Source: a virus (lineage: Duplodnaviria; Heunggongvirae; Uroviricota; Caudoviricetes). Taken from it: DNA of 48,302 bases. Numbering within the stretch: the stretch's first letter is position 1; every line of letters starts with the position of its first letter. The stretch is taken from the IMG/VR virus record IMGVR_UViG_3300045988_153358; one strand, written 5' to 3'. The notes beneath the pieces were generated by a model. That model had not been told where the DNA came from, did no database searches, and saw only the letters and a program-made list of their open reading frames with translations. Below are positions 5,986 to 35,238 of this stretch, piece by piece. The translations under genes were made by a program, and so were the position numbers.

Positions 5986-6609
5986 ATGACAAAACATCTT
6001 AATGTGGTTTCTTTACCACTTTCTGTGTTGATTGGTTATGAAAAGAACGCTCGCACACACTCCGTGGAGCAGGTAGATCAGATTGTTGCCAGCATACAGG
6101 AGTACGGATGGACTAATCCGATCCTGATAGACGAGAACAACGTTGTAATTGCTGGTCATGGTCGAATTGCTGCGGCCACTCAGTTGGGGATGGATGATGT
6201 TCCCTGCATTGTTCTGGCTGGGCTAACGGAGAATCAGAAGAAGGCATATCGTCTGGCCGACAACCGTATTCCGCTGAATGCTGGTTGGGATGAAGAGTTG
6301 TTAAGCGCGGAGCTTGCAGATCTTGCGGCCGATGATTTTGCTCTGGACTCAATTGGTTTTACTCAGCGCGAACTGGATAACTTATTGAGTGCGGCGGTCT
6401 ACGATGACACAGAGGGTATGGATATCCCATTTGAGAAGGATGAGGCCAAATCAGGCGTAAAAGTTCAGTACCTGTCATTTGGAGGTCATAAAATCCCGGC
6501 AACGGATGAGGAAGCGGATCGTTTTGACTGCGCGGTGTCTCGTTATGTTGATGATAATGGCAGCTATATCGGATTTGTATCCGCATTGCTGGCTGGGGAG
6601 GTGTGCTGA
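5986..6609 (+). CDS. ParB-like nuclease domain protein (copy 1)
   Basis: ParB N-terminal domain motifs (IAGHGR, KKAYRLADN); paralog of 9275-9865. Confidence 0.75.
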   Translation: MTKHLNVVSLPLSVLIGYEKNARTHSVEQVDQIVASIQEYGWTNPILIDENNVVIAGHGRIAAATQLGMDDVPCIVLAGLTENQKKAYRLADNRIPLNAGWDEELLSAELADLAADDFALDSIGFTQRELDNLLSAAVYDDTEGMDIPFEKDEAKSGVKVQYLSFGGHKIPATDEEADRFDCAVSRYVDDNGSYIGFVSALLAGEVC

Positions 6610-27694: not shown

Positions 27695-30541
27695 GTGAGT
27701 AAATTATTATTTACGATGACTGACGCCGGGCGTAAGGCGCTGGTTAATGCCAACAAGACTGGAACAAATAAAGTTGAGATCGTTTCTGTTGGTTTAGGTA
27801 GTAGATATTATGCCACATCAACCACACAAACAAAAATAACAGATGAAATAAAGCGACTTACCACAATAGGAGGCAAAGTCGTTTCTCCTGATACCATTCA
27901 TGTAACTGCGAAGGATGATAGTAAAGATGAGTATGTTGTCCATACAATAGGTTTGTATACAAATAAAGGAACATTGTTTGCTGTATACTCGCAAGAACAA
28001 GTAATAATAAATAAAGCATCTTCTACAATTGCTTTAATATCAAGTGATATAGCAATTAAAAATCTTGATACTAAAAACATTACATTTGGTGATGTTGAGT
28101 TTATTAACCCTCCCGCAACCGAAACTGTTGTTGGAGTAGCAAGATTTGCTAATGAACAAGAAATTGATGCAGGTACAGATGATTCCCTGGCTGTTTCAGC
28201 AAAGCGGCTTAAGCAAGCTATTGTAAAACATGAGCAATCACGTAATCATCCTGATGCAACTTTAACATCAAAAGGCATTGTTCAACTCAGTAATGCCACC
28301 AATAGCACGTCTGAAAAGCTCGCAGCGACGCCTAAGGCTGTTAAGGCTGCATATGACCTGGCTGACGGAAAATATACCGCCCAGAATGCCACCACGGCAC
28401 AAAAAGGGATAGTTCAGCTCAGTAGTGCCACTAACAGTACGTCTGAAACGCAGGCGGCAACGCCAAAAGCGGTCAAGGCAGCAAATGACAACGCAAATTC
28501 ACGTCTGGCGAAAAATCAGAACGGTGCAGATATCCAGGATAAATCAGCTTTTCTGGACAATGTTGGCGTTACCAGCCTGACGTTTATGAAAAACAATGGC
28601 GAAATGCCGCTTGATGCTGATCTGAATACGTTTGGTCCTGTTAAGGCTTATTCAGGTATCTGGTCTAAAGCAACATCCACCAACGCAACACTGGAGAAAA
28701 ATTTCCCGGAAGATAATGCTGTCGGTGTGCTTGAGGTTTTTGCTGCCGGCAATTTTGCAGGTACGCAACGCTTTACCACGAGAGACGGCAATGTATACAT
28801 GCGTAAACTCGCCAATAAGTGGAATGGCACTGATGGTCCGTGGGGCGTATGGCGTCACACTCAATCTGCTACCCGCCCTTTGAGTACGACTATAGACCTG
28901 AATACGCTTGGAGCCGCCGAGCATCTTGGTTTATGGCGTAACAGTAGCTCAGCTATAGCTTCATATGAACGCAATTATCCAGAGGAAGGCGGCTTTGCTC
29001 AGGGGATGCTTGAGATCCTCGAAGGCGGAAATTATGGAAGAACGCAACGTTATACCACTCGCCGTGGAAATATGTATGTCCGCTGTCTTGCGGCAAGCTG
29101 GGATGCATCAAATCCGCAGTGGGAACCGTGGTTAAGAGTCGGTCATCAGTCAGAGAGTCGTTATTACGAAGGTGATTTGAATGATGTAACCTCACCAGGT
29201 ATTTACAGCGTTACAGGTAAAGCGACCAACGGTCCAGTACTGGACGGAAACGGCGTGACTGTACTCGGCATTCTGGAAGTGTTGAGGCGGTTTGATGGTG
29301 TTAATGTATGGCAGCGTTATACAACTGCCGGAACAGGTACAACCCTTAAAGGCCGCACCTTTGAGCGCGTCTTTACCGGCAGCTCATGGAGCGAATGGCG
29401 GGAAGTCTACACCTCGTATTCACTTCCCCTGAATCTAGGTATCGGCGGTGCTGTGGCAAAGCTCACCAGCCTGGACTGGCAGACCTACGATTTTGTGCCG
29501 GGCAGTCTGATAACCGTTCGGCTTGATAACATGACCAATATTCCCGACGGTATGGACTGGGGCGTCATTGATGGCAACCTGATAAACATCTCAGTCGGTC
29601 CGAGTGATGATTCTGGTTCGGGACGCTCAATGCATGTATGGCGCAGCACTGTAAGTAAAGCCAACTACCGCTTTTTTATGGTTCGCATTTCAGGAAATCC
29701 GGGAAGCCGCACGATCACGACAAGACGTGTGCCAATTATCGACGAAGCTCAGACATGGATGGCGAAACAGACATTCAGCGGTGGTCTTTCAGGCGAACTA
29801 TCCGGCAATGCTGCTACAGCAACAAAGCTGAAAACGGCAAGGACAATTAACGGCGTAAAATTTGACGGCTCGGCAAATATTGAAGCGTTTCCGCCAGGTG
29901 TTCCGCTGCCGTGGCCATCAGATACGCCACCTGCAGGTTATGCAATCATGCAGGGGCAGACGTTTGATAAGGCAGCATATCCGAAACTGGCTATTGCCTA
30001 TCCTTCTGGTGTTATTCCAGATATGCGCGGCTGGACAATCAAGGGCAAACCCGCCAGTGGTCGGGCCGTATTGTCTCAGGAACAGGATGGCATTAAATCG
30101 CACACCCACAGTGCCAGCGCATCCAGTACGGATTTGGGTACGAAAACCACATCGTCGTTTGATTACGGTACTAAATCAACGAATAACACAGGTGCACATA
30201 CCCACAATGTATCTGGTACTGCAAATAGTGCTGGCGCACATACTCATACCGTTCCATTAAGGAGACCAAACAGTGGCGGTATGAATTTCGACTGGCTGGA
30301 TGGTTCATCAAGTGGCACGGTGGTGGGGAATGGAACTGTGCCTTCTTCTGGCGCACATACCCACTCAGTATCAGGTACCGCTACAAGTGCTGGGGCACAT
30401 GCACACACTGTTGGTATTGGCGCTCATACGCACTCTGTTAAGATTGGTTCACATGGACACACCATCACCGTTAACGCTGCTGGTAACGCGGAAAACACCG
30501 TTAAAAACATCGCATTTAATTATATTGTGAGGCTTGCATAA
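27695..30541 (+). CDS. tail fibre protein (start GTG 27695 or ATG 27716)
   Basis: 948 aa; tandem [23 protein letters not shown] repeats; C-terminal GAHTH repeats. Confidence 0.85.
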
Positions 30542-31158
30542 TGGCATTCAGAATGAGTGAACAATCACGTACCGTAAAAATTTATAACCTGCTGGCCGGA
30601 ACTAATGAGTTTATTGGTGAAGGTGACGCATATATTCCACCTCATACAGGGCTGCCAGCTAATTCTACAGATATCGCCCCACCGGAAATTCCTGCTGGCT
30701 TTGTGGCAGTTTTTAACAGTGAAAATGAATCGTGGAATATTGTTGAAGACCATCGTGGTAAAACGGTCTATGACGTGGCGTCGGGGGACGCATTGTTTAT
30801 TTCTGAACTCGGACCGCTACCAGAGAATGTCACCTGGTTGTCGCCAGCAGGGGAGTATCAGAAGTGGGACGGCGTATCCTGGGTGAATGATGAGGAAGCA
30901 GAAAAACTGTTTCGGATACGGGAAGCGGAAGAGAAAAAGGCAAGGTTGATCCAGGAAGCAACAGATAACATCGCAATTCTGCAGGATGCAGTTAATCTTG
31001 AAATAGCAACAAACGAGGAAAATTCACAACTGGATTCCTGGAGAAAATACAGAGTATTAGTGAGTAGAATTGACACCAGTACAGCTCCGGATATCGTATG
31101 GCCAGAGCTGATGAATCAGGGTTATGTTCGGGAGGACGAGCAGATAACTTCAGACTGA
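30541..31158 (+). CDS. tail fibre assembly protein
   Basis: 205 aa directly after tail fibre gene; typical N-terminal pattern. Confidence 0.8.
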
Positions 31159-31685
31159 AATTTAGTGATGAATGTTGAATCATCAGGAATATCATGCAAT
31201 ACCAATGCATGAGCACCTATTGTGACATTGTTTCCTATACGCACTTTGCCACCAAGAATGGTGGCATTACAACCAATGGTCACATTATGCCCTATAACAA
31301 TATCCATATCATTAAATTCCCCGCGAAGTCCAATAGTTACTCCGGGCTTAATTGAACAATTTTCACCGATTGTTACTTTGTGACCGATAACAACACTGTT
31401 GAGATAAGAAATATCAAAGCCTTTCCCTATATTTACAGTTAAAGGGACTGTTACATTATATTTATCAAGAATGAAACGTTCTATTTTTCCCGCAATCTTC
31501 CGACAGTATCCGCCTTTATCAAAAAGGTATTTGGCTATGCGCCACCAAAATAAATAACGAACCCTTCTATGTTTTATTGCGCGAACAATTGCCTTTCGCC
31601 AGGAGAAAGGACGCTCGCTACCGATTACTTCATAGTGAATACAGTCTTTAAGTTCATTAATATTCATATCTTTATTATTCAGCAT
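31122..31685 (-). CDS. hexapeptide-repeat acyl/acetyltransferase (left-handed beta-helix family)
   Basis: repeated [LIV]-G-x-x-x-x hexapeptides ([43 protein letters not shown]). Confidence 0.75.
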
Positions 31686-32155
31686 AAGATAATCATGTGA
31701 CCAATTATTGTAATAATTTTAATGGTATGTTTCTACTGGCTATCCAGCGTGTCTGATATCCAGTAACAAATCGTCAACACGGGTGCAATCAAATGGTGAG
31801 TGTTAAGACTGACCACTTATTACCAGGTATGAGTGGCCAGCATTAAATCAGAACAGCCCTTTAACTGAACTGGCCGCGCTGTTAAGGGATGATGTCACCT
31901 TATCTTTGAAGCCGGACAGCATATTGCTGAACGATGAGTTTACCGCAGGTTTCTGGCTGGGAATCATTGACTGGAGTTAGGCCAGTAGTATGATGCTCGC
32001 AAAACGAGATCCAATTTAGATCCTTTTACTGGTGGATTATCGTTCGATCAGTGAGAGACTTCGTGCATGACCGAAAGTGTTGTGGTAGAGTTCTCTTAAA
32101 ACCACGTAACGTGGTTATGATTGTGGGTGTCTGGTTGGAAAGTGACCAGATATGG

Positions 32156-32268
32156 AAACAAAAAGCCCGCAGATAAATCTGCGGGCTTCTTGCGACATCC
32201 ACGGAAAACCAACAATTAACCATGGGCGCCTCGACAACTCCCATTATACGTTGGTTTTCCGTGGACGC
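32156..32268 (-). ncRNA. candidate CopA-like antisense RNA region for repA control
   Basis: 16-bp perfect inverted repeat 32198-32213 / 32250-32265 with about 36-nt loop; 10-bp hairpin 32163-32188 followed on the minus strand by a U-run. Confidence 0.45.
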
Positions 32269-32280
32269 AAGAGCGAACAT

Positions 32281-33129
32281 ATGGATAGACCAATGCCGTC
32301 TCTACGTTCAGCTTACGTTTGTAATTTGTCGCCGGAGTTCCAGCGTCCAAAGCACCATACGCACAAGCTGCCGCTGGTGTTATCTGATGCTTTACAGCGC
32401 ATTAATGGGCGTGATCTTACGTGTGAGGTTGCGTTCTACGTTAATCAACCGTCAGAGCGGAAGCGCCGGATAAACGAGCATCGTCGTCGGGCGATTAATG
32501 CTGTGATCGCTGCGATTTTGCACCATGTAAACATCATTTCTAAGCGGGTTCTGGCTAGTGCTGAGGCGTTGGCTGATTTTTGCGGCCTGTCTACCGTATC
32601 CGAAGCTGGGAACAAGTCTATAACGCGCTGTACAAGGGCGTTGTCGCAACTGAAAGCGTTAGGTTTTATTGATTATGAACGTCGCTGGGATCGGGTGAAT
32701 AAACAGTATTGGCCAGCGAAAATAGAGATTCGTGATCAACTGCTGGAAACCGTTGGTATTACTGAACAAGCATGGAGACGTGCGGTTAGCCAGAAACTTA
32801 ATTACTTCAATGCGAAGAATAGCGAACGGCTTAAAAAAGCGATAACGGAGGCTGATTATAAGCGTATTGTTATTCAGGAGCAGATGGAGAATGTATGGCG
32901 TCAGAGGAAGACGGCCAGAGAGATAAAGGCAAAACAGAAAGCAGCGGAGAGAGCTGCGCGTCTTGTTCGGGAAAAGGGAGAGGCCGAACTTCGTCATCAA
33001 ATCACCAGAGAGGTTAGTCAGGAATTTGCTGATGGCATGTATCCTGGTGCTGACCTTGCATATTTACGATCCCTCGTTGAGCAGCGTTATAACAGGTTAA
33101 GAAAGACCTGGAAATCACTCCAACATTAA
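32281..33129 (+). CDS. repA: plasmid replication initiator RepA, IncFII RepA1-like
   Basis: central region (GLSTVSEAGNKSITRCTRALSQLKALGFIDYE) closely resembles R100/R1 RepA1; ORF extends upstream to 32152 but that stretch holds the stem-loops. Confidence 0.75.
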   Translation: MDRPMPSLRSAYVCNLSPEFQRPKHHTHKLPLVLSDALQRINGRDLTCEVAFYVNQPSERKRRINEHRRRAINAVIAAILHHVNIISKRVLASAEALADFCGLSTVSEAGNKSITRCTRALSQLKALGFIDYERRWDRVNKQYWPAKIEIRDQLLETVGITEQAWRRAVSQKLNYFNAKNSERLKKAITEADYKRIVIQEQMENVWRQRKTAREIKAKQKAAERAARLVREKGEAELRHQITREVSQEFADGMYPGADLAYLRSLVEQRYNRLRKTWKSLQH

Positions 33130-33400
33130 CCCACCTGAATGATGAATCCGGTTTTACCGGAGGATTATCTACGTCGCAATAAAATATCTGTTCAAAAAAC
33201 AATCTAAATTAATTTTCTCTAAACCTGAACACAGCAAAAATATCGCCTTTACAGGCATCGGCTAATAAAGTTATCCACAGTTCTGATATGTATATGCAAA
33301 TGGTTTTTTATAATAGATGCACTAAACAAATAAATGCAAAATCACTTTCTTTTATTAAGACTTTCTTTATTTAACTTACGCAGGCTTTGCCTGTGAATAT
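33130..33400. other. putative plasmid-type replication origin region
   Basis: AT-rich tract directly downstream of repA with a perfect DnaA box TTATCCACA at 33271-33279. Confidence 0.5.
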
Positions 33401-33772
33401 GTTCGCCCTTGCAGCGAGCTAAAGCTCGCGCCGGTTCGAGTCGCTACGCTCAAATATACCTCCTCCGGCACTTGCCGGAGGCATGGAGCAGCCTGATCAT
33501 CCTTTTCGAAACGGCACGTTTCGAACTATACAAAATCAATTTATATAAGGCCGAAATAAGGCCTACGGCCGGGCTTTGCAGGAGGAAGGGGCGAGCCTTA
33601 TCAATAAACGTCGATAAATACGCACACAGTAGCCATCAGAACGCGATAAAATGTAAGAAACATCATTTCCTATTAGACATAGAAAACTTGTCTTATACGC
33701 AATGTAGTAAATTTCTATTGCCACATAGGAAAAGATTTCCTACCATCGTAGATATAATAAATGGAGATGGTT

Positions 33773-34060
33773 ATGGATAAAGATACTGTTTTAAAAATGT
33801 TGAATCCGGCTTGTTTAAAAAAAGCGGATGAATGGGAATCTCCTACATGTGGAGAAGTTCGGGCAGTCATTGGCCTGACCGGAATGAGCGGCTCGCAGTT
33901 AGCCAAAAAACTAGGCTTAAAAGATAGTCGCAATGTTCGCAACTGGCAGATGTTAAAGGAGTCCACATCCAGATCCAGCATTCCGTATGCAGCCTGGGCG
34001 CTGCTGTGTTACTTCGCTGGGTTAGGGTTAATCTTCATTGATAACAAAACAGATGTTTGA
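33773..34060 (+). CDS. hypothetical HTH protein with C-terminal transmembrane helix (95 aa)
   Basis: HTH-like GMSGSQLAKKLGL, hydrophobic IPYAAWALLCYFAGLGLIFI; GGAG Shine-Dalgarno. Confidence 0.5.
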   Translation: MDKDTVLKMLNPACLKKADEWESPTCGEVRAVIGLTGMSGSQLAKKLGLKDSRNVRNWQMLKESTSRSSIPYAAWALLCYFAGLGLIFIDNKTDV

Positions 34061-34581: not shown

Positions 34582-34591
34582 AGGATTGAGC

Positions 34592-34939
34592 ATGTGGACG
34601 GTACTTTTTAGCCAGCGATTTGACGACTGGCTAAATGAGCAAGAAGACGCTCTTCAGGAAAAGGTTTTGGCTGATTTGAAAAAGCTACAGGTTTACGGAC
34701 CTGAGTTACCCAGGCCATATGCCGATACCGTAAAAGGTTCTCGGTACAAAAATATGAAAGAGCTTCGCGTTCAGTTTTCTGGCCGTCCGATAAGAGCCTT
34801 TTATGCGTTCGATCCGATTCGCCGGGCCATCGTTCTTTGTGCAGGAGACAAAAGTAACGATAAGCGGTTTTATGAAAAACTGGTGCGTATAGCTGAGGAT
34901 GAGTTTGCAGCACATCTGAACACACTGGAGAGCAAGTAA
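34592..34939 (+). CDS. type II toxin, RelE/ParE superfamily (gp49/HigB-like)
   Basis: 115 aa; MWTVLF start, ELPRPYADTVKGSRYKNMKELR and VLCAGDKSNDKRFYE patterns; upstream of HTH partner. Confidence 0.75.
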   Translation: MWTVLFSQRFDDWLNEQEDALQEKVLADLKKLQVYGPELPRPYADTVKGSRYKNMKELRVQFSGRPIRAFYAFDPIRRAIVLCAGDKSNDKRFYEKLVRIAEDEFAAHLNTLESK

Positions 34940-35238
34940 TGAGAACATTAGATGAGGCGATTGCCAGCCGTTCACCTGAAAGCCAGGCGCGAATTAAAGA
35001 AATGGCAGATGAGATGATTCTTGAGGTCGGCTTGCAGATGATGCGTGAAGAACTCCAGTTATCACAAAAACAGGTTGCTGAGGCGATGGGTATAAGCCAG
35101 CCAGCAGTAACAAAGCTGGAGCAGCGCGGAAATGATTTAAAGCTGGCGACATTAAAGCGTTACGTTGAAGCTATGGGAGGCAAATTAAGCCTGGATGTTG
35201 AGCTTCCCACAGGAAAACGAATAGCGTTTAACATCTGA
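34939..35238 (+). CDS. HTH (XRE-type) antitoxin
   Basis: 99 aa; HTH LSQKQVAEAMGISQPAVTKLE; ATG overlaps toxin stop. Confidence 0.75.
   Translation: MRTLDEAIASRSPESQARIKEMADEMILEVGLQMMREELQLSQKQVAEAMGISQPAVTKLEQRGNDLKLATLKRYVEAMGGKLSLDVELPTGKRIAFNI

What the first reader, a model, noticed from the sequence alone, without database searches (positions are those of the whole stretch)
31122..31685. Hexapeptide acetyltransferase convergent with the tail fibre assembly gene
A left-handed beta-helix acyltransferase is encoded on the opposite strand, overlapping the 3-prime end of the tail fibre assembly gene by about 37 nt. Enzymes of this family commonly acetylate sugars or xenobiotics. In a prophage next to the receptor-binding genes, a plausible role is lysogenic conversion of the surface polysaccharide to block superinfection. 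Xenobiotic acetylation is the alternative.
Basis: partly seen in the sequence, partly recalled or inferred. Interest (0 to 1): 0.45.

Follow-up and report, generated by a model that had tools for sequence, protein, structure and literature searches.

The report
Histidine-less acetyltransferase-fold gene riding tail-fibre cassette
A small gene that travels with a phage's host-recognition (tail fibre) genes encodes a protein built like a serine/sugar acetyltransferase, but the two residues such enzymes use for catalysis are replaced while the protein stays strongly conserved, so the database label "serine acetyltransferase" is wrong and its real job, probably altering the host cell surface, is untested.

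Summary
ORF 31122..31685 (-) encodes a left-handed beta-helix protein that converges on the tail fibre assembly gene and overlaps it by 37 nt. The element is a ~47 kb IncFII-RepA phage-plasmid, not an integrated prophage.

Sequence and predicted fold are closest to the serine acetyltransferase (SAT)/WcaB branch, but it fails every curated cut-off and lacks the serine-binding residues.

Unexpectedly, its clade has replaced the SAT Asp-His catalytic dyad with Thr79/Tyr94. All 63 non-redundant close-family relatives, WcaB and CysE keep the His. The clade is still under strong purifying selection (dN/dS 0.08-0.10).

The gene is A+T-rich and has its own conserved promoter. It is inherited as the last gene of a mobile cassette (fibre tip, tfa, this gene) shared by P1-like plasmids, P2-like prophages and this plasmid. 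It occurs in 184 of 5,426 complete E. coli genomes.

Best reading: a lysogeny-expressed moron acting on an envelope glycan precursor linked to the fibre's receptor, with rewired chemistry. A non-catalytic pseudoenzyme is the main rival. No function has been tested anywhere.

The parts
31122..31685 (-). ORF as listed (187 aa): SAT/WcaB-fold left-handed beta-helix protein, member of phrog_2154
31122..31667 (-). Probable true CDS starting at Met7 (181 aa)
   Evidence: The first ATG is lost in L038/L042 and the homologues start here. PGAP uses this start in pSCEC128.
31404..31406 (-). Codon TAT = Tyr94, at the column of the catalytic His (CysE His158, WcaB 'IHH')
31449..31451 (-). Codon ACA = Thr79, at the column of the dyad Asp/Glu (CysE Asp143)
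31302..31304 (-). Codon GAT = Asp128, at the column of CysE His193. Met127 sits at the column of CysE Arg192.
31707..31735 (-). Conserved sigma-70-like promoter, TAGAAA-17 nt-TACAAT (TATAAT in 4 of 6 relatives), inside the shared upstream stretch
30541..31158 (+). Tail fibre assembly gene (Caudo_TAP). Residues 191-205 are an extension that creates the overlap.
31122..31158 (.). 37-nt convergent 3'-3' overlap
27695..30541 (+). Tail fibre gene (948 aa)
28563..31755 (.). Mobile host-range cassette (distal fibre, tfa, this gene, promoter), 94% identical in P1-like plasmids. It extends over 28398..31938 in a P2-like prophage.
32152..33129 (+). IncFII-type RepA. It is context that marks the element as a phage-plasmid and is not part of the cassette.

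Best explanation
The gene is a moron: an A+T-rich, independently transcribed accessory gene placed antisense at the end of the late tail operon. It is inherited as the terminal gene of a horizontally exchanged host-range cassette made of the tail fibre tip, tfa and this gene.

It encodes a ~20 kDa soluble, basic protein, presumably trimeric, with the serine acetyltransferase/WcaB architecture: a helical N-domain plus a left-handed beta-helix. It is not a serine acetyltransferase.

Its wider family is marked by an invariant FWWR motif. That family keeps a normal Asp/Glu-His dyad, and some members sit among LPS or O-antigen genes, so the ancestral activity is most likely acetyl-CoA-dependent O-acetylation of a cytoplasmic-face envelope glycan precursor, as WcaB does for colanic acid.

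Inferred, not shown: in the lysogen this protein acts on such a precursor that is related to the receptor or shield seen by the co-inherited fibre. That would change the cell surface, giving superinfection resistance and less loss of progeny on lysogens.

In the window's clade the active site has been rewired (Thr79, Pro81, Tyr94, Pro114, Met127, Asp128) under strong purifying selection. The chemistry or the acceptor has therefore changed, for example a Tyr/Asp-assisted reaction or an amine acceptor that needs no base.
For: Shown by tool results:
- Fold and family.
- Serine-binding Arg192-His193 and Asp157 equivalents are absent, and all curated cut-offs are failed.
- Dyad: all 63 non-redundant close-family relatives keep His at position 94, with D/E at position 79 in every one tabulated. 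All 8 non-redundant members of the window clade have Tyr94 and T/K/V at 79.
- dN/dS is 0.08-0.10.
- GC is 0.37 against 0.46-0.47 for the neighbouring tail genes.
- A promoter is conserved in all backbones.
- The cassette boundaries are the same in P1-like plasmids, P2-like prophages and this IncFII plasmid.
- Convergent adjacency to a tail fibre assembly gene (-36 to +50 nt) recurs down to 34% identity.
- A His-type allele occupies the same slot next to a diverged fibre tip and Tfa.
- Some chromosomal relatives neighbour GT2, Wzy_C, GT9 and AT3-SGNH genes.
- No TM segment, pI 9.4.

Precedents:
- NeuO is a prophage-borne LbH capsule O-acetyltransferase that raises phage resistance (PMC3046976, PMC13001214).
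- NeaT is an antisense, A+T-rich acyltransferase moron in the same slot after tail fibre gene G of a P2-like prophage (PMC3573123).
Against: - No biochemical or phenotypic data exist for any member. PMC9603915 says the reason for the gene's presence is unknown.
- The catalytic His that PMC3046976 describes as shared by all LbH family members crystallised up to 2011 is absent, which argues against ordinary O-acetyl transfer.
- The Proteus paralogue is present in all 60 serotypes whatever the O-antigen structure, and the authors doubted an O-antigen role (PMC5560731).
- Many relatives are lone inserts beside unrelated genes.
- Linkage to the fibre tip could simply reflect a permissive insertion site, since the slot after the tail fibre assembly gene is a known moron hot spot (PMC3573123).
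- The acceptor is unknown.
Confidence: 0.4

Rival explanations
1. Pseudoenzyme. The clade has lost acyl transfer and works by binding. It could sequester a lipid-linked glycan intermediate, CoA or acetyl-CoA, or it could bind and inhibit a host or phage protein, using the conserved SAT-like scaffold.
For: - Both dyad residues are lost together. Position 79 then drifts between T, K and V, as expected once it has no catalytic partner.
- Strong purifying selection shows that some function is retained.
- An independent loss of the His (Asn) is seen in another small group of homologues.
- From general knowledge, non-catalytic LbH proteins exist, such as dynactin p25/p27 and the eIF2B LbH domains. 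A weak LbH_EIF2B match appears.
Against: - Tyr94 is invariant across 53-100% identity, so it is not merely tolerated.
- The other clade-specific changes sit at pocket positions (81, 114, 127, 128), which suggests a remodelled pocket and not an abandoned one.
- The small-residue motifs of the C-terminal coils that line the CoA groove in SATs are retained.
Confidence: 0.22
2. A cytoplasmic acetyltransferase with a non-glycan target (a protein, nucleotide, tRNA or small molecule) that serves anti-phage defence, counter-defence or host physiology.
For: - The slot after the tail fibre assembly gene carries varied accessory cargo, and a HicB antitoxin gene shares the slot in L068-L078 (PMC3573123).
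- Many relatives are lone genes with no glycan neighbours.
Against: - There is no match to any of the 5,027 PADLOC defence models.
- No partner gene is conserved.
- The nearest sequence and fold relatives act on serine or on sugars.
Confidence: 0.15
3. A genuine serine O-acetyltransferase, as databases label it: an auxiliary metabolic gene that boosts cysteine synthesis.
For: - NCBI names it 'serine acetyltransferase'.
- All 50 listed top fold matches are SATs.
- A relative sits right after cysE in Proteus.
Against: - TIGR01172 scores 71.5 bits against a cut-off of 210.65, and NF008349 scores 44.7 against 397.
- The catalytic Asp143/His158 equivalents are Thr/Tyr, and the serine-binding Arg192-His193 equivalents are Met-Asp.
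- The C-terminus ends '...SSSRT' and has no CysK-binding tail with a terminal Ile (the requirement is from general knowledge of CysE).
- The cysE adjacency in Proteus is explained by the O-antigen locus lying there (PMC5560731).
Confidence: 0.03
4. A xenobiotic or antibiotic acetyltransferase of the CatB/Vat type.
For: Weak local matches to CatB/Vat profiles, confined to generic hexapeptide coils.
Against: - Scores are 22-27 bits against cut-offs of 300-475.
- The N-terminal helical domain and the fold matches are SAT-type.
- The catalytic His is absent.
- The gene is linked to phage tail genes and not to resistance elements.
Confidence: 0.02
5. The functional product is the transcript. It would act as an RNA antisense to the 3' end of tfa and regulate or exclude phages, as STnc6030 does in BTP1.
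For: - The gene overlaps tfa by 37 nt in antisense.
- A prophage antisense RNA that excludes superinfection is a documented precedent (PMC7067206).
Against: - dN/dS of 0.08 shows selection on the protein.
- The overlap is absent in the 88-89% relatives, where the gap is +11 nt.
Confidence: 0.03

Closest known systems
WcaB (colanic acid O-acetyltransferase) and other short SAT-like polysaccharide acetyltransferases such as EpsC
   Same: Similar size (162-187 aa), a helical N-domain plus LbH coils, an invariant Arg in the N-domain, and a soluble cytoplasmic protein.
   Different: Identity is only 25-26%, and the scores are 60-62 bits against cut-offs of about 195. WcaB keeps the Glu...His pair where this protein has Thr...Tyr. 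This protein also has the FWWR motif and a one-residue insertion ('ILGGKV'). It is phage-borne and not in a polysaccharide operon.
CysE serine O-acetyltransferase
   Same: The best matches among solved structures by both sequence and fold (TM about 0.7), and the same domain order.
   Different: It lacks about 90 N-terminal residues, the Asp143-His158 dyad, the serine-binding Asp157/Arg192/His193 and the CysK-binding C-terminal tail. It fails all the equivalog cut-offs.
NeuO of prophage CUS-3 (K1 capsule O-acetyltransferase)
   Same: An LbH-family protein carried by a temperate phage that modifies a surface polysaccharide which is also a phage receptor, and that increases phage resistance (PMC3046976, PMC13001214). 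It is the functional model for the leading hypothesis.
   Different: NeuO belongs to a different LbH subfamily. No polysialate O-acetyltransferase appears among the 55 PDB sequence hits. NeuO has a catalytic His and Trp and a 5' heptanucleotide VNTR for phase variation, and no tandem repeat is found here.
NeaT of P2-like prophage phi-b0847 (E. coli CFT073)
   Same: The same slot ('moron position 2', directly after tail fibre gene G), antisense to the tail genes, strongly A+T-rich, patchy distribution among unrelated phages, and effects on aggregation and on interactions with host phagocytes (PMC3573123).
   Different: NeaT is an integral-membrane AT3 acyltransferase (PF01757) and is not homologous to this protein.
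His-type members of the same family (for example P0020 at the edge of a P2/HP1-like prophage, L053/L054, and the second 'serine acetyltransferase' of Proteus)
   Same: 34-49% identity, the same FWWR N-domain, the same insertion, and often the same convergent position next to tfa.
   Different: They keep the D/E79 and His94 dyad and Gln114. None has been characterised either.

Membership tests
Hexapeptide / left-handed beta-helix acyltransferase superfamily | Hexapeptide repeats that form an LbH domain | tested here: met
   Pfam Hexapep scores 47.5 bits against a cut-off of 27. The model has pLDDT 89.4 with short strands at coil periodicity. All 50 listed top fold hits are LbH serine acetyltransferases.
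Hexapeptide / left-handed beta-helix acyltransferase superfamily | A catalytic histidine on a loop at the subunit interface | tested here: not met
   Tyr94 aligns with CysE His158 and the WcaB His in three independent alignments. No other His is conserved in the clade. PMC3046976 states that all LbH members crystallised by 2011 share this His.
Serine O-acetyltransferase (CysE, EC 2.3.1.30) | Score above the curated equivalog cut-off | tested here: not met
   TIGR01172 scores 71.5 against 210.65, and NF008349 scores 44.7 against 397.
Serine O-acetyltransferase (CysE, EC 2.3.1.30) | The Asp143-His158 dyad and the serine-binding Asp157, Arg192 and His193 | tested here: not met
   The equivalents are Thr79, Tyr94, Ser93, Met127 and Asp128.
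Serine O-acetyltransferase (CysE, EC 2.3.1.30) | A C-terminal tail ending in Ile that binds CysK | tested here: not met
   The protein ends '...VICSSSRT'. The requirement itself comes from general knowledge of CysE.
WcaB / EpsC polysaccharide acetyltransferases | Score above the curated cut-off | tested here: not met
   WcaB scores 62.4 against 196 and 60.1 against 194.65. EpsC scores 81.2 against 150.
WcaF / NodL / maltose-galactoside acetyltransferase group | Profile match above the cut-off | tested here: not met
   WcaF scores 25.9 against 192, LacA 33.1 against 347 and Maa 30.8 against 314.
CatB / Vat xenobiotic acetyltransferases | Profile match above the cut-off | tested here: not met
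   CatB scores 25.1 against 350 and Vat 25.1 against 300.
PHROG phrog_2154 (phage protein family of unknown function) | A full-length profile match | tested here: met
   E 6.9e-79, with residues 5-186 matching profile positions 2-184 of 185.
Known anti-phage defence systems (PADLOC-DB 2.0) | A match to any defence-protein model | tested here: not met
   There are no hits at E <= 0.1 for this protein or for two His-type relatives.
Moron / lysogenic conversion gene | Own promoter, antisense to the late genes, atypical composition, variable presence among related phages | tested here: met
   The promoter is conserved. GC is 0.37 against 0.46-0.47 for the neighbours. The orientation is convergent. 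The gene is present in 184 of 5,426 genomes and in three backbones.
Moron / lysogenic conversion gene | Expression in the lysogen and a host phenotype | not testable with these tools
   This needs RNA-seq or 5'-RACE and surface chemistry or adsorption assays.
NeuO-type phase-variable phage O-acetyltransferase | A 5' heptanucleotide VNTR plus a catalytic His/Trp pair | tested here: not met
   No tandem repeats are found in 30900..32200. No polysialate O-acetyltransferase appears among the PDB sequence hits.

The most novel reading that the evidence does not exclude
Phage host-range cassettes carry, as a fixed third gene, a SAT-fold protein that has given up the LbH catalytic Asp-His dyad yet is strongly conserved. 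It would be either the first LbH acyltransferase to use a Tyr/Asp-based or base-free mechanism on an O- or N-acceptor, or a pseudoenzyme that masks or blocks synthesis of the receptor recognised by the co-inherited fibre. Either way, the fibre tip, its chaperone and a receptor mask would move between P1-like, P2-like and IncFII phage-plasmids as one unit.
Probability: 0.3. Interest if true: 0.65.

Novelty: new variant of a known kind. Interest (0 to 1): 0.45.

Why it matters
First, the label 'serine acetyltransferase' applied to hundreds of E. coli phage, plasmid and chromosome records is not supported. One paper has already puzzled over why a phage-plasmid would carry a cysteine-biosynthesis gene (PMC9603915).

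Second, the gene is physically part of the unit that phages swap to change host range, and it is present in about 3% of complete E. coli genomes, including clinical phage-plasmids. If it modifies the receptor or its shield, it would affect superinfection, phage-therapy susceptibility and possibly serology.

Third, a strongly conserved LbH protein without the catalytic His is either a mechanistic novelty or a pseudoenzyme. A few simple mutants and assays could distinguish the two.

Tried and rejected
- PADLOC defence profiles gave no hit.
- Tandem Repeats Finder found no NeuO-like phase-variation repeats.
- Rfam on 30000..34000 found nothing that bears on the gene. It returned only a sub-threshold IS009 match inside tfa and weak Thr_leader-like hits near repA.
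- Terminator scan: no convincing terminator lies between the convergent genes.
- Contexts of the divergent Tyr-type members were uninformative. P0014 sits beside a transposase fragment on a non-phage contig, and P0009 sits beside a UDG gene on a 2 kb contig.
- I considered His102, His133 or His159 as a replacement base and rejected them, because none is conserved across the Tyr clade.
- I considered that the cysE adjacency in Proteus points to cysteine metabolism and rejected it. The O-antigen locus lies there, and the paralogue lacks the serine-binding residues (PMC5560731).
- A literature search for hexapeptide + prophage + tailspike returned nothing.
- The QdtC paper, needed to cite base-free LbH N-acetyltransferases, was not available. 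That precedent rests on my own knowledge.
- I could not model the trimer or dock acetyl-CoA, because model coordinates are not exposed.

Full report
**1. Observation**

The ORF 31122..31685 (-) is real. It encodes 187 aa and converges on the tail fibre assembly gene 30541..31158 (+), sharing 37 nt with it.

- Pfam Hexapep is above threshold, and phrog_2154, a phage family of unknown function, matches full length at E 6.9e-79.
- The upstream gene is a 948-aa tail fibre and the overlapped gene is a Caudo_TAP chaperone.
- The overlap arises because this Tfa has 15 extra C-terminal residues. The 190-aa Tfa of related cassettes ends at '...WPEL', 11 nt short of the gene.
- The first ATG is lost in the 88-89% relatives and the homologues begin near residue 7. 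The true start is therefore probably Met7 at 31667, giving 181 aa.

**2. What the element is**

The next gene, 32152..33129, is an IncFII-type RepA (NF040977, 231 bits). The region is identical in a dozen circular 47-49 kb E. coli plasmids and in 'phage' vB_EcoM-613R2. The window is therefore a phage-plasmid and not an integrated prophage.

**3. Family placement**

- NCBIfam ranks EpsC (81 bits against a cut-off of 150), CysE (71.5 against 210.65) and WcaB (62 against 196) first. WcaF, LacA, Maa, CatB and Vat score 22-33 bits against cut-offs of 192-475.
- The best matches among solved structures, by sequence, are serine acetyltransferases.
- The AlphaFold model has pLDDT 89.4, with four helices followed by LbH coils. 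All 50 listed top PDB matches are SATs, with TM about 0.7.
- There is no TM segment and the pI is 9.4.

**4. The unexpected feature**

Three independent alignments (phmmer to PDB, MAFFT with genuine E. coli CysE and WcaB, and MAFFT of about 160 loci) agree on these equivalences:

| Window residue | CysE position | Role in CysE |
|---|---|---|
| Thr79 | Asp143 | Partner of the catalytic His |
| Tyr94 | His158 | Catalytic His |
| Met127-Asp128 | Arg192-His193 | Serine binding |

- After thinning for redundancy, all 63 close-family relatives (30-47% identity) keep His94. D/E is at position 79 in every one tabulated. All 8 members of the window's clade (53-100% identity) have Tyr94, with T, K or V at position 79.
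- Other clade-specific changes fall at SAT pocket positions: Pro81 (CysE His145) and Pro114 (CysE Gln178; Gln in 58 of 63 relatives). The fold glycines and the family's invariant FWWR motif are kept.
- Among 92 broader database homologues the column reads His 81, Tyr 8 (this clade) and Asn 3 (a separate group).
- The Tyr clade is monophyletic in an NJ tree, with weak bootstrap support of 53. Its sister is a His-type group.
- dN/dS within the clade is 0.08-0.10 with dS up to 0.64, so this is a selected protein and not a decaying one.
- PMC3046976 notes that all LbH members crystallised by 2011 share a catalytic His.

**5. Genomic behaviour**

- The gene's GC is 0.37, against 0.46-0.47 for the tail genes.
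- A promoter, TAGAAA-17-TA(C/T)AAT, is conserved in all backbones within the 70 nt upstream.
- Homology with P1-like plasmids runs over 28563..31755 at 94% identity. It covers the distal fibre, tfa, this gene and the promoter, then stops.
- A P2-like prophage shares 28398..31938. Other relatives share from about 29900 to 31736-31755.
- In P1-like plasmids the cassette sits after the tail fibre genes R and S. From my knowledge of the P1 map, that is where U'/S'/cin lie, and PMC9603915 describes the same substitution in JL22.
- L053/L054 carry a His-type allele in the same slot, next to a diverged fibre tip and Tfa.
- Convergent adjacency to a tail fibre assembly gene, at -36 to +50 nt, recurs down to 34% identity.
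- Other relatives lie at prophage edges next to integrases or next to sheath/GpU genes. Some are lone chromosomal inserts.
- The gene is in 184 of 5,426 complete E. coli genomes, at 158 chromosomal and 58 plasmid places.

**6. Clues to the acceptor**

- Some chromosomal His-type relatives neighbour GT2 glycosyltransferases, a Wzy_C protein, a GT9 heptosyltransferase or an AT3-SGNH acyltransferase.
- In Proteus the relative directly follows cysE, at the O-antigen locus. It is present in all 60 serotypes, however, and the authors doubted an O-antigen role (PMC5560731).
- PADLOC gives no defence match, and no phase-variation repeats are present.

**7. Interpretation**

The best-supported reading is a lysogeny-expressed moron, co-mobilised with the receptor-binding module, that acts on a cytoplasmic-face envelope glycan precursor.

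- The functional precedent is NeuO (PMC3046976, PMC13001214).
- The positional precedent is NeaT, an unrelated antisense, A+T-rich acyltransferase in the same slot of a P2-like prophage (PMC3573123).
- Because the dyad is replaced, the clade either uses altered chemistry or a different acceptor, or it is a binding-only pseudoenzyme. The invariance of Tyr94 and the remodelled pocket slightly favour a rewired, functional site.
- A genuine SAT role and xenobiotic acetylation are effectively excluded by the cut-offs and by the residues.
- An antisense-RNA role is unlikely given the selection on the protein and the absence of the overlap in relatives.

**8. Novelty**

The gene is annotated and has been noticed in the literature, where its role is called unknown (PMC9603915). 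Three things are new here: the demonstration that the label is wrong, that the gene belongs to the exchangeable host-range cassette, and that its clade lacks the catalytic dyad under purifying selection. This is a new variant of a known kind (phage-borne LbH surface-modifying morons), and its function is still to be tested.

Noticed in passing
window 30884..31082 (+), inside tfa: Full-length match to Rfam IS009 (RF02111) at 81.5 bits and E 4.7e-18, below the gathering score of 117. The family model probably derives from a prophage tfa region.
   Followed up: no
window 31756..32266: The region between the cassette boundary and repA gives weak Thr_leader-like hits on both strands (32098..32266). 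It also has a promoter-like site at 31967..31994 (+). These are probably repA leader or copy-control structures of the IncFII-type replicon.
   Followed up: no
window 34586..35238: A RelE/ParE-family toxin and an HTH antitoxin pair lie downstream of repA, as annotated in the identical plasmid pSCU-204-5.
   Followed up: no
L002 8700..9685 (pSCEC128, P1-like): About 1 kb of GC-rich sequence with no credible ORF lies between the acetyltransferase and the holin genes. From my knowledge of the P1 map, this is where cin and the second half of the invertible C segment would be. It may be a remnant or an unannotated element.
   Followed up: partly
L098-L101, L105, L108, L111, L115, L149 (Proteus spp.): A His-type family member directly follows the genuine cysE, with a gap of 0-3 nt, in all the Proteus species sampled. 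It corresponds to the 'two serine acetyltransferase genes' reported at the O-antigen locus of all 60 serotypes (PMC5560731).
   Followed up: partly
L130 5387..5935 and 6001..6564 (Buttiauxella MAG): Two tandem paralogues of the family sit in the same orientation.
   Followed up: no
L068, L070-L075, L078 (IMG/VR prophage contigs): A HicB-like antitoxin gene lies immediately upstream, on the same strand, of the His-type gene in the slot after tfa. The slot therefore collects several accessory genes.
   Followed up: no
P0083, P0099, P0106 (distant homologues): A separate small group has Asn at the catalytic-His column and Tyr at the Asp column. This is a second, independent loss of the His among short SAT-like proteins.
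   Followed up: no
L050 6001..6558: A copy with a disrupted C-terminus, where the frame changes after '...GAHALV'. It has no adjacent tfa and is probably a decayed or rearranged cassette.
   Followed up: no
L006-L010 (E. coli chromosomes, next to mntR): The His-type relative P0020 (208 aa) sits at the edge of a P2/HP1-like prophage beside a DUF4760 gene. The pair persists in L010, where the tail-gene content differs.
   Followed up: partly
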